A stretch of DNA of 32,000 bases from Patescibacteria group bacterium (GTDB lineage Bacteria; Patescibacteriota; UBA1384; XYA2-FULL-43-10). Position 1 is the first letter of the stretch; every line of letters starts with the position of its first letter. The stretch lies in assembly GCA_041674405.1 (NCBI GenBank), contig JBAYVT010000005.1, positions 112,284 to 144,283 on the forward strand, written 5' to 3'. The translations under genes and the position numbers were made by a program. The notes beneath the pieces were generated by a model. It was not told where the DNA came from. It saw only the letters and a program-made list of their open reading frames with translations, and searched no databases. Below are positions 31,027 to 31,624 of this stretch, in pieces.

Positions 31027-31147
31027 GTTGGCGGCGTCCTACTCTCCCGGGACCTTTTTTATCCCGCGAAGCTTCAGCGAAGTGGGGCGATCCAAGTACC
31101 ATCCCCCTTCGCTCTTCGAGCTACGGAGGGACAAGTCGGCGCTGAAA
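31027..31147 (-). pseudogene. 3' half of an outer 5S rRNA copy carrying two GC-rich insertions
   Basis: 31027-31057 is identical to 31164-31194 of the intact 5S. 31089-31103 equals 31196-31210, and 31138-31146 equals 31211-31219. Inserts lie at 31058-31088 and 31104-31137. Confidence 0.7.
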
Positions 31148-31163
31148 ATAAAAAATACTTAGT

Positions 31164-31279
31164 GTTGGCGGCGTCCTACTCTCCCGGGACCTTTCGATCC
31201 AAGTACCATCGGCGCTGAAGTGCTTAACTTCTCTGTTCGGAATGGGAAGAGGTGTACCCACTTCGCCAAAACCACCAAC
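31164..31279 (-). rRNA. rrf: 5S ribosomal RNA (intact, canonical)
   Basis: The minus strand reads GUUGGUGGUUUUGGCGAAGUGGGUACACCUCUUCCCAUUCCGAACAGAGAAGUUAAGCACUUCAGCGCCGAUGGUACUUGGAUCGAAAGGUCCCGGGAGAGUAGGACGCCGCCAAC. It contains the conserved CCGAAC, AGCGCCGAUGGUA and GAGAGUAGG blocks. Helix I closes (GUUGGUGG/CCGCCAAC), and the flanks extend the stem. Confidence 0.85.
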
Positions 31280-31297
31280 ACTAAGTATTCTTTAAAT

Positions 31298-31414
31298 GTG
31301 CTTCCTGCCCCGCGTAGCTTTACGCGGAGTGGGGTCTGCTCGGAATGGGAAGAGGTGTACCCACTTCGCCACCCGTCTCGCCTGCGGCGAAGCCGAGGCG
31401 GAAAACCACCAACA
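31298..31414 (-). pseudogene. 5' half of an outer 5S rRNA copy carrying two GC-rich insertions
   Basis: 31402-31430 is identical to 31268-31296 (helix I 5' strand plus a 17-nt leader). 31335-31370 equals 31232-31267 with one mismatch at 31339. Inserts lie at 31371-31401 and 31305-31334. It ends in GAAGCAC, which is the 5S sequence GAAGUUAAGCAC lacking 5 nt. Confidence 0.7.
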
Positions 31415-31624
31415 CTAAGTATTCTTTAAAGCCTAATATTTTATGCTTTTAATTTTAAACTCTATTGCCACACAGGACAGGGCAATAAGTAGTGCCATGT
31501 CCTTGTACGGTAATACAGATTTGAGCTAGGATCTTACACACAAGAAGAATAAATCATCCTGTGCGAAGTATCATTAACGCTCGAAGTTTTACTGGGAGTT
31601 CCAGTAATTGCTAGTCAAACAATA

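What the first reader, a model, noticed from the sequence alone, without database searches (positions are those of the whole stretch)
31027..31430. A complete 5S rRNA gene nested inside a second 5S copy
Reading the minus strand, the order is as follows.
- A 17-nt leader plus the helix I 5' strand (31430..31402).
- A 31-nt insert.
- 36 nt equal to the intact 5S, with one mismatch.
- A 30-nt insert.
- GAAGCAC.
- The same 17-nt leader again, followed by a canonical 116-nt 5S (31279..31164) and a ~17-nt trailer.
- UUCAGCGCCGA, a 34-nt insert, UGGUACUUGGAUC, and a ~30-nt insert.
- AAAGGUCCCGGGAGAGUAGGACGCCGCCAAC.

The two outer pieces together make one full-length 5S. Its helix II 3' strand (CAC|UUCAGC) is interrupted by a ~150-nt unit at 31148-31297. 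That unit is an intact 5S with its own complementary flanks (AAUACUUAGUGUUGG ... CCAACACUAAGUAUU), which look like a precursor processing stem.

Both breakpoints map to the same 5S position. This favours a nested insertion or gene-in-gene event over two independent partial tandem duplications. The outer helix I strands are intact, so the ~390-nt region could in principle fold as a giant 5S-like RNA carrying a 5S domain.

Long insertions are known in the 5S rRNA of Halococcus and in CPR 16S/23S genes. I am not aware of a described 5S-in-5S arrangement.
Basis: partly seen in the sequence, partly recalled or inferred. Interest (0 to 1): 0.8.

Follow-up and report, generated by a model that had tools for sequence, protein, structure and literature searches.

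The report
Working 5S gene inside broken 5S
In this uncultured candidate-phyla-radiation (Patescibacteria) bacterium the working 5S ribosomal RNA gene sits inside the split remains of a second 5S copy that also carries small GC-rich inserts. The same arrangement recurs in related bacteria, so it is a real and repeated way of remodelling an essential gene, most likely leaving a relic rather than a new RNA machine.

Summary
On the minus strand, an intact 117-nt 5S gene (31163-31279, Rfam 97.9 bits) has its own leader, trailer and U-run. It lies between C60 and U61 of a second 5S copy (31026-31413).

The six core pieces of the outer copy match the inner gene at 113 of 116 aligned positions. That copy also carries four GC-rich inserts of 30-32 nt and a damaged loop B.

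An independent JGI assembly has the same sequence across the region, so this is not an assembly chimera.

The arrangement is recurrent:
- 16 of 91 distinct CPR-like 5S loci carry nested or partial interrupted 5S copies, against 0 of 90 loci from other phyla.
- The breakpoints abut exactly at three different positions (38|39, 54|55, 60|61).
- Plain relatives keep a single 5S in the outer flanks.

Best reading: a complete 5S unit was inserted into the resident gene. The outer shell is a relic that collects self-folding modules. Its closing stem and terminator probably still serve.

Stepanov and Fox (2021) described 5S remnants with insertions beside normal 5S genes in other phyla. Neither nesting nor any CPR case turned up in the papers I could search.

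Some data hint at constraint on the shell, and this is unresolved.

The parts
31623..32000 (-). 3' end of 23S rRNA (cut by the window end)
   Evidence: Rfam RF02541, 361 bits, model positions 2532-2925
31435..31622 (-). 23S-5S spacer
   Evidence: Lies between the Rfam 23S end and the outer leader. Its start (GACTAGCAATTACTG) is shared with relatives.
31414..31434 (-). Outer leader (AGGCUUUAAAGAAUACUUAGU). Its last 18 nt are repeated as the inner leader.
   Evidence: 29-nt exact direct repeat 31402-31430 / 31268-31296. Pairs with the outer trailer: I4, 13 nt at 92%; 17 leader-trailer pairs in the predicted fold.
31402..31413 (-). Outer 5S nt 1-12 (helix I 5' strand)
   Evidence: Identical to the inner copy
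31371..31401 (-). Insert 1, a 31-nt GC-rich hairpin in loop A
   Evidence: Folds alone at -17.3 kcal/mol. A 30/32 identical copy sits at the same 5S site in L080, whose leader is unrelated.
31335..31370 (-). Outer 5S nt 13-48 (helix II 5' strand, helix III, loop C)
   Evidence: 36/37 identical to the inner copy. The mismatch hits the conserved CCGAAC motif.
31305..31334 (-). Insert 2, a 30-nt GC-rich hairpin at the helix III 3' strand / loop B
   Evidence: Folds alone at -17.3 kcal/mol, z -3.65. Its 3' arm is complementary to the 5' part of insert 4 (I12; 14 bp in the fold).
31298..31304 (-). Outer 5S GAAGCAC: end of the 5' half, with about 5 nt of the loop B motif missing
   Evidence: Alignments
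31280..31297 (-). Inner leader (AUUUAAAGAAUACUUAGU)
   Evidence: Part of the 29-nt repeat D3. Perfectly complementary to the inner trailer (I1; fold).
31163..31279 (-). Inner, intact 5S rRNA gene: the presumed working copy
   Evidence: Rfam RF00001, 97.9 bits against a gathering score of 38, full length. 33 of 34 model pairs are standard pairs.
31147..31162 (-). Inner trailer (CUAAGUA) plus U-run (UUUUUUAUU), a terminator-like tail
   Evidence: The inner unit folds with a closing stem of about 25 bp, -59.8 kcal/mol, z -5.8. 43 of 59 plain relatives have a T-run after the trailer.
31136..31146 (-). Outer 5S nt 61-71 (UUCAGCGCCGA); resumes exactly where the 5' half stopped
   Evidence: 11/11 identical to the inner copy (D7)
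31104..31135 (-). Insert 4, 32 nt
   Evidence: Its 5' part (CUUGUC...) is shared with L062/L044, L083 and, less closely, L042 at the same 5S site. Pairs with inserts 2 and 5.
31088..31103 (-). Outer 5S nt 70-85 (GAUGGUACUUGGAUCG)
   Evidence: 16/16 identical to the inner copy (D6). Sits at the tip of the long insert 4 / insert 5 hairpin.
31058..31087 (-). Insert 5, 30 nt, in loop D
   Evidence: Does not fold alone (-5.3 kcal/mol, z +1.4). With insert 4 it forms one long stem (-38.7 kcal/mol, z -2.3). It is the reverse complement of the L062 insert at the same site (17/17).
31026..31057 (-). Outer 5S nt 86-117 (helix IV/V 3' strands, helix I 3' strand)
   Evidence: Part of the 43-nt repeat D1; 31/31 identical over the 5S part
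30997..31025 (-). Outer trailer (UAGAGUUUUUUAAAGCC) plus T-run (UUUUUUAUUUCC): the presumed original end of the operon
   Evidence: Pairs with the outer leader (I4). Resembles the trailers of plain relatives such as L041 and L092.

Best explanation
The window shows the tail of the rRNA operon of a Patescibacteria (CPR) genome.

What is there (shown). A complete 5S expression unit lies inside an older 5S gene, between C60 and U61 in the 3' strand of helix II. The unit is about 150 nt: an 18-nt leader, the 117-nt 5S, a trailer that pairs with the leader, and a U-run.

What each part does (inferred).
- The inner copy is the working 5S.
- The outer copy is a disrupted relic. Such an insertion into a single-copy essential gene is viable only because the insert itself supplies a functional 5S.
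- The relic then picked up four GC-rich, mostly self-folding modules. These are small counterparts of 5S expansion segments and of the insertions in CPR 16S and 23S rRNA genes. It also suffered a small deletion in loop B.
- The relic's outermost stem (leader, trailer and helix I) and its T-run probably still act as the processing and termination stem of the operon. This would help explain why the shell persists.
- Relatives show the shell at every stage: fresh, insert-laden, half-deleted and gone.

How the unit was inserted is not known. Candidates are capture of a DNA or cDNA fragment at a break, a templated two-switch replication error, or transfer from a relative.
For: Anatomy
- Only the inner copy passes Rfam.
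- The spliced outer copy is still full-length 5S-like: 102.8 bits with the clade profile and 32 of 34 model pairs possible. It has lost about 5 nt of the GAAGUUAAGC motif and has CCGAGC in place of CCGAAC.

Reality
- An independent JGI assembly has the same sequence across the region.

Recurrence
None occur in 90 loci from other phyla (Fisher p = 1.5e-5).
- Inner units sit at 38|39 (L064), 54|55 (L079, L083), about 49 (L049/L047), 60|61 (window, L091) and 61 (L019/L088). In three lineages the breakpoints abut exactly; in the others at most about 6 nt are lost.

Polarity
- L093 has a single plain 5S in flanks about 95% identical to L064's outer flanks.
- L075's functional 5S has the leader of L080's outer remnant.
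- L124 is a plain twin of L042.

Origin by duplication
- In 9 of 14 loci the outer copy's nearest 5S in the whole data set is its own inner copy.

Decay series
- The spliced outer copies can form 32, 31, 29, 26, 26, 23 and 17 of 34 model pairs.
- Some loci keep only the 3' half (L042, L062, L016, L142) or only the 5' half (L053, L080; in L047 the 3' half is largely degraded).

Design of the unit
- Plain relatives have a helix I extension with a median of 10 of 10 pairs, and 43 of 59 have a T-run.
- All nested loci keep an outer T-run.
- In 6 of 7 nested loci, 12-17 outer leader-trailer pairs are predicted, while the inner 5S folds on its own with no pairs to the outer core.

Literature
- 5S remnants with insertions lie beside normal 5S genes in other phyla. 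Insertion sites there also cluster in loop B, helix III and loop C, at the three-way junction, and in helix IV (PMC7812874).
Against: - The relic looks too well kept for junk. Only 1 substitution separates the outer from the inner core outside the damaged loop B, yet four inserts have accumulated.
- Between L019 and L088 the outer core differs at 2 of 115 positions, against 8 of 51 in the trailers (p = 0.0014) and 5 of 118 in the working 5S.
- L091's outer copy is 99% identical to the functional 5S of relatives. Its inner copy is only 95% identical to any sampled 5S. This needs a foreign inner unit or constraint on the shell.
- L064's inner unit has flanks unrelated to the outer flanks although the nesting looks young. 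A simple self-copy does not fit there.
- In the window the outer trailer differs from the inner trailer although the two leaders are identical.
- The same insert occurs at the same site in lineages with unrelated leaders (window and L080, 30/32). That needs mobility or parallel origin.
- No expression data exist. The claim that the inner copy is the functional one rests on its integrity alone.
- The taxonomy of the metagenome loci is inferred from 5S type, not shown.
Confidence: 0.6

Rival explanations
1. The shell is functional. The outer 5S strands and the GC-rich modules would form a selected composite precursor. It could act as a long concentric processing or termination scaffold. It could insulate relic strands so that they do not compete with folding of the identical inner 5S. 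Or, after the stem-loops are excised, it could be a second, expanded or fragmented 5S-like RNA with a ribosomal or extraribosomal role.
For: - The outer core is conserved above the flanks in L019/L088 (2/115 against 8/51, p = 0.0014). The trailer changes there keep pairing with the leader through G-C/G-U and A-U/G-U swaps.
- L049 keeps a perfect 19-bp distal outer stem although its outer and inner cores are only 92% identical.
- L049 and L024 have helix II differences between outer and inner copies that are compensated on both strands (read).
- Insert 1 is 94% conserved between lineages with unrelated leaders.
- In the predicted fold the inserts pair across the inner unit (inserts 2 and 4, 14 bp; inserts 4 and 5, 10 bp) and with core strands. 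The inner 5S forms no pairs with the outer core in any of 7 loci.
- In L019, L088, L024, L079 and L062 the inner unit lacks its own T-run, so the 3' half must be co-transcribed.
Against: - The window's outer copy has lost conserved loop B residues and altered CCGAAC.
- Some inserts split stems and loop C, where uL5 and uL18 bind (site clashes discussed in PMC7812874).
- The canonical helices II, IV and V are not predicted.
- Very close relatives lack the shell or keep only one half (L124 against L042, L093 against L064, L033 against L053).
- Insert positions differ between the close relatives L019 and L088.
- The window's inner unit carries its own U-run, which may stop transcription before the 3' half.
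- The conservation evidence rests on one good pair and small counts.
Confidence: 0.17
2. The 5S unit and the small palindromic modules are mobile or horizontally exchanged cassettes that repeatedly hit 5S rDNA in CPR. A foreign or paralogous 5S unit lands in the resident gene and replaces it. GC-rich hairpin families then colonise, or first kill, the old copy.
For: - L091's inner copy is divergent (95% to any sampled 5S), while its outer copy is 99% identical to relatives' 5S.
- The inner units of L064 and L080 have leaders, trailers or helix I unrelated to the resident ones, although the outer flanks match plain relatives.
- The same modules recur in different lineages or at different sites:
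  - insert 1 in the window and in L080;
  - CCTGCCCGC...GCAGGCGGG at position 5 in L053 and position 103 in L042;
  - ATCCGCC-N4-GGCGGA at positions 54, 67 and 100, and also at gene ends;
  - insert 5 inverted in L062.
- Short repeats like target-site duplications flank several inserts (GA, GCAG, GATA, CAGAG; read).
- L064's 60-nt insert shares end motifs with its inner unit.
- Stepanov and Fox also infer horizontal spread of 5S expansion segments.
Against: - In 9 of 14 loci, including the window, the outer copy's nearest 5S is its own inner copy. The window's two leaders are identical, which fits self-duplication.
- The inserts carry no transposase, integrase or conserved terminal repeats.
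- Inserts 1-5 have no other copy in the 32-kb window beyond 13-mers at chance level.
- The ends of the unit differ between lineages.
- CCGCC...GGCGG hairpins are also ordinary gene-end hairpins.
Confidence: 0.15
3. There were two independent partial tandem duplications: leader plus 5' half upstream, and 3' half plus trailer downstream. They happen to meet at one position, so nothing was inserted.
For: - Loci exist with only a downstream 3' piece (L042, L062, L016, L142), only an upstream 5' piece (L053, L080), or an interrupted copy in tandem (L187).
- In the window the 5' half looks younger, with a leader identical to the inner one, than the 3' half. The 3' half has a diverged trailer and carries inserts 4 and 5, which are shared with L062 and L083.
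Against: - The breakpoints abut exactly in the window, L079 and L064 at three different positions. In five more loci they lie within about 6 nt. The chance per locus is about 1 in 100 for exact abutment and about 0.1 for a match within 6 nt.
- One-sided loci are equally well explained by deletion of one half.
Confidence: 0.07
4. The structure is an assembly chimera or collapsed strain variants.
For: - Metagenome assembly was used, and short repeats are present.
- The Logan contig L003 breaks inside the 31-nt repeat.
Against: - An independent JGI contig has the same sequence across the region.
- The k = 141 assembly exceeds every repeat, all of which are 43 nt or shorter.
- Chimeras do not create GC-rich inserts.
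- The same architecture appears in more than 10 other lineages with diverged sequences.
Confidence: 0.01

Closest known systems
5S rRNA gene remnants with large insertions next to normal 5S genes (Peptococcaceae, Pseudoalteromonadaceae; Stepanov and Fox, RNA 2021, PMC7812874)
   Same: Both are 5S-like sequences at the distal end of an rRNA operon beside an intact 5S. Both carry large self-pairing insertions, are often preceded by a terminator, are judged to be pseudogenes, and are scattered among close relatives. The insertion sites fall in the same regions: loop B, helix III and loop C, the three-way junction, and helix IV.
   Different: Here both terminal parts survive and wrap around the intact gene, so one of the 'insertions' is itself a whole 5S unit. 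[quoted passage not shown] That study set aside sequences with internal duplication.
Expanded 5S rRNAs (Halococcus morrhuae 108-nt insertion; Thermoanaerobacterium, Halanaerobium, Lachnospiraceae and others; PMC7812874)
   Same: Stem-loop modules of 13-109 nt are inserted at a limited set of 5S sites and fold independently of the core.
   Different: In those cases the expanded RNA is the only 5S, or sits in a normal expression context with an intact core. Here an intact 5S is present, the outer core is damaged, there are four modules plus a 150-nt unit, and two modules pair with each other and with core strands.
Insertion sequences in CPR 16S and 23S rRNA genes (Tsurumaki et al. 2022 and 2024, PMC9297842 and PMC11270868)
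   Same: The same clade is unusually prone to insertions in rRNA genes, with sporadic distribution among relatives.
   Different: Those are at least 100 bp, mostly group-I-intron-like, and often encode LAGLIDADG endonucleases. None was reported in 5S genes. The inserts here are about 30 nt or a 5S unit, with no intron model hit and no ORF.
Intervening sequences of 23S rRNA excised by RNase III (Salmonella, Coxiella and others; e.g. PMC4990558)
   Same: Extended stem-loops are inserted in an rRNA gene, are patchy among strains, and are removed at the closing stem. The inner 5S unit with its 25-bp closing stem looks like such a module.
   Different: Intervening sequences sit at helix tips of a functional rRNA that stays functional as fragments. 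Excision here is untested, and the host copy is probably dead.
Small palindromic repeat elements (REP, MITE-like; e.g. PMC3733652)
   Same: Both are GC-rich imperfect palindromes of 20-40 nt. Related copies occur in different places and in both orientations, and some are flanked by short direct repeats.
   Different: No multi-copy family was demonstrated in this genome, no RAYT-type or other transposase was seen in the window, and GTAG/CGTC end tags were not examined.

Membership tests
5S rRNA (Rfam RF00001): inner copy | Full-length match to the covariance model at or above the gathering score (38 bits) | tested here: met
   97.9 bits, model positions 1-120, at 31163-31279 on the minus strand
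5S rRNA (Rfam RF00001): outer copy as it lies in the genome | Match to the covariance model | tested here: not met
   No RF00001 hit outside the inner copy, even with E up to 10 on 30800-31700
5S rRNA: outer copy after removing the inserts in silico | Full-length similarity and ability to form the five helices | tested here: met
   Clade nhmmer profile gives 102.8 bits over model 2-116. 32 of 34 model pairs are possible. Rfam itself could not be run on a spliced sequence.
5S rRNA: outer copy | Conserved loop B / helix III motif GAAGUUAAGC and loop C CCGAAC intact | tested here: not met
   GAAGUUAAGCAC reads GCAGGAAGCAC, and CCGAAC reads CCGAGC
Expanded 5S rRNA (Stepanov and Fox 2021) | Insertions fold as independent modules that leave the core pairing undisturbed | tested here: not met
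   Inserts 1, 2 and 4 fold alone, but insert 5 does not. In the predicted fold insert 2 pairs with insert 4, insert 4 with insert 5, and insert 5 with core segment f. Helices II, IV and V are absent. This is a prediction only.
Expanded 5S rRNA (Stepanov and Fox 2021) | It is the only 5S type, or sits in a normal 5S expression context | tested here: not met
   An intact 5S lies inside it
5S gene remnant with insertions (Stepanov and Fox 2021) | 5S-like sequence with large insertions, downstream of a normal 5S at the end of the rRNA operon, preceded by a terminator | tested here: met
   The 3' half (31026-31146) follows the inner 5S and its U-run and carries inserts 4 and 5
5S gene remnant with insertions (Stepanov and Fox 2021) | Lacks one or both terminal parts of 5S | tested here: not met
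   Both helix I strands are present, and the 5' half lies upstream of the intact gene. Hence it is a variant (nested), not a plain member.
CPR rRNA insertion sequence (Tsurumaki 2024) | Insertion of at least 100 bp relative to a reference rRNA | tested here: met
   A 151-nt unit (31147-31297) interrupts the outer 5S
CPR rRNA insertion sequence (Tsurumaki 2024) | Group I or II intron-like structure, or a homing endonuclease ORF | tested here: not met
   No intron family at gathering score in the window or at E up to 10 in 30800-31700. The unit is a 5S gene with no room for an ORF.
RNase III-excised intervening sequence | Stem-loop excised from the precursor at its closing stem | not testable with these tools
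   A closing stem of about 25 bp is predicted. Cleavage needs RNA data.
REP or MITE-like palindromic element | Many related copies dispersed in the same genome | tested here: inconclusive
   The 32-kb window holds no further copy of inserts 1-5 beyond 13-mers at chance level. Related modules do occur in other lineages and sites, and CCGCC-N-GGCGG hairpins occur at gene ends. The whole genome was not available.

The most novel reading that the evidence does not exclude
The shell is not junk. In a clade of CPR bacteria the 5S gene would be embedded in a maintained composite precursor, in which relic 5S strands and fast-changing GC-rich modules form concentric stems around the working 5S. These would serve processing, termination or folding insulation, or would yield a second expanded 5S-like RNA. 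Alternatively, complete 5S units and small palindromic modules would be mobile cassettes that repeatedly target and replace the 5S gene.
Probability: 0.2. Interest if true: 0.8.

Novelty: new variant of a known kind. Interest (0 to 1): 0.6.

Why it matters
- **Annotation.** Standard 5S annotation (cmsearch with RF00001) reports only the intact copy. It therefore hides a recurrent remodelling of what is normally a single-copy, essential gene in CPR bacteria. A survey that used it concluded that CPR 5S genes carry no insertion sequence of 100 bp or more.
- **A record of insertions.** The relic shells are not (or less) filtered by ribosome function. They therefore record which modules enter rRNA genes in this clade, where they land and how fast they turn over. 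Close relatives differ in insert position while their core sequence is almost unchanged.
- **A general rule.** The nested state illustrates that an essential single-copy gene can survive a disruptive insertion if the insert carries a working copy.
- **If the shell is constrained.** It would then be a new kind of pre-rRNA architecture, or a 5S-derived RNA.
- **Practical points.** These loci break short-read assemblies, and they could mislead 5S-based length statistics.

Tried and rejected
1. **Synteny route.** I fetched homologues of the adjacent ABC ATPase (P0004, P0005, P0007). Their contigs have no rRNA operon next to the gene, so they said nothing about 5S.
2. **Genome scan.** The pattern GGGTACACCNNNTCCCATTCCGARC was too broad. 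I kept these loci only as a negative control.
3. **Rfam at E up to 10 on the locus.** No partial 5S hits appeared for the outer halves. The snoRNA and miRNA hits are noise.
4. **Terminator scan.** It cannot see stems that enclose 117 nt. Its two hits are on the wrong strand or irrelevant.
5. **Other copies of inserts 1-5.** Beyond the L080 and L062 matches, only 13-mers at chance level turned up. The 13-mer shared with the hairpin at window 20187-20199 is suggestive but not significant (E 0.37).
6. **Foreign origin of the inner units in general.** Rejected as a general rule because the outer copy's nearest neighbour is usually its own inner copy. I kept it for L091, L064 and L080.
7. **Covariation in the inserts.** I considered this test. 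Too few orthologous copies exist (three for inserts 4 and 5) for a meaningful result, so I did not run it.
8. **Finer taxonomy of the window genome.** Not pursued. Protein names give only 'Patescibacteria group'.
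Full report
**1.

Read on the minus strand, the window ends with the 3' part of a 23S rRNA (Rfam RF02541, 31623-32000) and a spacer of about 190 nt.

Rfam finds one 5S gene, at 31163-31279. It scores 97.9 bits against a gathering score of 38 and is full length. Nothing else in 30800-31700 matches, even at E up to 10.

Around this gene lie six pieces that together make a second 5S:
- nt 1-12 (31413-31402)
- nt 13-48 (31370-31335)
- GAAGCAC (31304-31298)
- nt 61-71 (31146-31136)
- nt 70-85 (31103-31088)
- nt 86-117 (31057-31026)

Identities to the inner gene are 29/29 (including the leader), 36/37, 11/11, 16/16 and 31/31. Four GC-rich blocks of 31, 30, 32 and 30 nt separate the pieces. 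So does the inner unit, which consists of an 18-nt leader, the 5S, and a 16-nt trailer with a U-run.

The two halves of the outer copy stop and resume at adjacent nucleotides (C60|U61). A spliced alignment of the inner 5S against its own flanks scores 138, against at most 24 for shuffled flanks.

- By analogy with the inner gene, the outer copy ends at 31026.
- It is not a perfect 5S. The conserved GAAGUUAAGCAC reads GCAGGAAGCAC, and CCGAAC reads CCGAGC.
- Insert 5 does not fold alone.

**2. It is not an assembly artefact**

- A JGI contig from another sample (L001, Ga0378408_0042938) is identical across the whole 5S region. Its only 4 mismatches in 5095 nt lie elsewhere (three of them mapped in the 23S).
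- The ENA contig L002 (megahit, k141, 395 kb) is 100% identical and is probably the window's source.
- All repeats are 43 nt or shorter, well under that k.
- A Logan contig (L003) is 100% identical and breaks inside the 31-nt repeat, as expected for a k = 31 assembly graph (my inference about Logan's assembly).

**3. The organism**

The neighbouring genes are ordinary chromosomal genes: PBP1, RadA, RecJ, Mur ligases, FtsI, ProRS, RecO, Fpg and a MacB-type ABC transporter. The nearest named homologues of the adjacent ABC ATPase come from 'Patescibacteria group bacterium', Nealsonbacteria and Berkelbacteria. I take the genome to be a CPR bacterium. No finer placement was attempted.

**4. The arrangement is recurrent**

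A metagenome scan with a 5S pattern of this lineage returned 92 loci. A broader genome scan returned 120 loci, mostly from other phyla, which I used as a control. I searched all of them with a clade nhmmer profile and with a spliced alignment of each locus's own 5S against its flanks.

Interrupted or partial extra 5S copies surround or adjoin the intact gene in these groups:
- the window, L091, L079, L083, L042, L062/L044, L053, L080 and L016
- L019, L088 and L024
- L049/L061 and L047
- L064
- L142 (a Parcubacteria MAG)
- L187 (a Saccharibacteria MAG, where the interrupted copy lies downstream in tandem)

The other phyla show only plain tandem 5S genes and one Bdellovibrionales repeat array (Fisher p = 1.5e-5).

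The inner unit sits at different 5S positions in different lineages:
- 38|39 in loop C (L064)
- 54|55 (L079, L083)
- about 49 (L049/L047)
- 60|61 (window, L091)
- 61 (L019/L088)

The abutment is exact in the window, L079 and L064. At most about 6 nt are lost in the others. Two independent partial duplications would not meet like this again and again.

**5. Polarity**

- L093 is a close relative of L064. The 23S end, leader, trailer, terminator hairpin and downstream gene are about 95% identical. L093 has one plain 5S sitting in what are L064's outer flanks. L064's inner unit has an unrelated leader and trailer.
- L075's functional 5S has the same leader as the outer 5' remnant of L080.
- L124 has the same 5S and flanks as L042 but lacks its 3' remnant.

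So the outer copy is the original gene position and the inner unit is the newcomer. The shell is dispensable over short evolutionary distances.

**6. What the inner unit is**

In 59 plain relatives the 5S is flanked by a leader and trailer that extend helix I. The median is 10 of 10 pairs, against 7 for mismatched controls. A T-run follows in 43 of the 59. This is the normal precursor stem and operon end of the clade.

The window's inner unit is exactly such a module. It has a closing stem of about 25 bp (-59.8 kcal/mol, z -5.8) followed by UUUUUUAUUUU. The outer copy keeps its own version: 17 leader-trailer pairs in the predicted fold, then a T-run.

**7. The inserts**

- Inserts 1, 2 and 4 fold alone (-16 to -17 kcal/mol).
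- Inserts 4 and 5 together form one long stem with 5S nt 70-85 at its tip (-38.7 kcal/mol).
- In the predicted fold of the whole 430-nt region, insert 2 pairs with insert 4 across the inner unit (14 bp), insert 4 with insert 5 (10 bp) and insert 5 with the last core segment (11 bp).
- Of the outer 5S helices, only helix I and a helix III-like hairpin appear.
- In seven nested loci the inner 5S is always predicted to fold by itself, with no pairs to the outer core. Only 5-13 of the 34 canonical outer pairs appear.

These are predictions, not measurements. They do not support a giant 5S-like fold.

Related modules recur elsewhere:
- Insert 1 is 30/32 identical in L080 at the same loop A site, although the leaders are unrelated.
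- Insert 5 is the reverse complement of the L062 insert at the same loop D site.
- The 5' part of insert 4 is shared with L062, L083 and, less closely, L042.
- A CCTGCCCGC...GCAGGCGGG module lies at position 5 in L053 and at position 103 in L042.
- ATCCGCC-N4-GGCGGA hairpins lie at positions 54, 67 and 100 in four loci, and also at gene ends, including window 20155-20175.
- The close relatives L019 and L088 have almost identical outer cores but inserts at different places.

**8. Comparison with what is known**

Stepanov and Fox (2021, PMC7812874) catalogued expanded 5S rRNAs. These carry 1-3 self-pairing insertions of 13-109 nt at 17 sites, concentrated in loop B, helix III and loop C, at the three-way junction, and in helix IV.

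They also described 5S remnants with large insertions. These lie downstream of normal 5S genes at the ends of rRNA operons in Peptococcaceae and Pseudoalteromonas, and the authors regard them as pseudogenes. They excluded sequences with internal duplication.

The insert sites in the CPR shells fall in the same regions: loop A, about 50-58, 62/63, 73/74, loop D and about 103-105 in E. coli numbering (my conversion, offset +2). The window's 3' half fits their description of a remnant.

What differs here:
- the remnant is nested around the working gene;
- one 'insertion' is a complete 5S unit;
- the host clade is CPR.

For CPR, Tsurumaki et al. report abundant insertions in 16S and 23S genes but none of 100 bp or more in 645 5S genes. 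They used cmsearch, which sees only the intact copy.

**9. Best explanation and open points**

I conclude, with confidence 0.6, the following:
- A complete 5S unit was inserted into the resident 5S gene.
- The inner copy is the working gene.
- The outer copy is a relic that gathers expansion-type modules and decays. Spliced outer copies can still form 32, 31, 29, 26, 26, 23 and 17 of 34 pairs in seven loci. Other loci keep only one half.
- The relic's closing stem and T-run probably still serve the operon.

Several observations do not sit easily with a neutral relic:
- The outer core differs at 2 of 115 positions between L019 and L088, against 8 of 51 in the trailers (p = 0.0014) and 5 of 118 in the inner 5S.
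- L091's outer copy is 99% identical to relatives' functional 5S, while its inner copy is only 95% identical to any sampled 5S.
- L049 keeps a perfect 19-bp outer stem despite 8% divergence between its outer and inner cores.
- In the window the outer trailer differs from the inner one although the two leaders are identical.

Possible explanations are constraint on the shell, gene conversion, or horizontal exchange of 5S units. The data here are too few to choose between them. How the unit was inserted is also unknown.

**10. Verdict**

The structure is real, unusual and recurrent. It is a new nested variant of a known kind (5S remnants with insertions), and I found no earlier report of it for CPR. 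It is interesting mainly as a window on how rRNA genes are remodelled in this clade. There is a minority chance that the shell is functional or that mobile 5S cassettes exist.

Noticed in passing
window 19197-20225: A 314-aa ORF with about 55% GC in a genome of about 40% GC, with no Pfam match. Two GC-rich hairpins follow it (GATCCGCCTAGTGGCGGAT and CAGGCGAG...CTCGCCTG). They share a 13-mer with insert 1 and CCCACTCCG with insert 2 of the outer 5S. This may be a foreign island or a source of hairpin motifs.
   Followed up: partly
L105 (OZ220490.1, Bdellovibrionales) 705-1605: An intact 5S is followed by four tandem partial 5S 3' pieces (profile positions 47-116) with a 197-nt period. This is a different kind of 5S-derived repeat, outside CPR.
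   Followed up: no
L064 (Ga0210057_1008792), outer copy, 60-nt insert at 5S position 26: The ends of the insert (TCAC-AGCACC...GGTGCTGG) resemble the ends of the inner unit (TCACCCAGCAC...GTGCTGGG). It also carries a contiguous loop C fragment (GTTTCCATTCGAA). It looks like a collapsed earlier nested unit, that is, a possible third shell.
   Followed up: partly
L049/L061 and L047, inner leader and trailer: The inner leader (GCGTTGGCTTCAC...) and trailer (...GAAGCCAA) resemble the two strands of a 5S helix I. This suggests that the 'processing stem' may itself be the remains of an older shell.
   Followed up: no
L042, L124 and L080, 23S-5S spacer (GCATGCGACCCA[hairpin]GGGCGATGCTGG): A hairpin of different sequence in each lineage occupies the same site between conserved spacer blocks.
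   Followed up: no
window 31770-31790 (23S, Rfam LSU model 2817-2831): The 23S lacks about 15 nt of a terminal helix relative to the bacterial model. This fits the shortened rRNA helices reported for CPR.
   Followed up: no
L187 (CAZNWG010000019.1, Saccharibacteria MAG), downstream of the 5S: A second 5S copy lies in tandem after a terminator hairpin. It is interrupted by inserts of 99, 49, 19 and about 90 nt. This occurs in a lineage for which 16S and 23S insertions are reported to be absent (PMC11270868 abstract).
   Followed up: partly
L003 (Logan SRR6484325_98517), start of contig = window 31033: A third data set holds a contig 100% identical to the window. It ends inside the 31-nt repeat at the 3' end of the outer 5S. 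This shows how such loci fragment short-k assemblies.
   Followed up: yes
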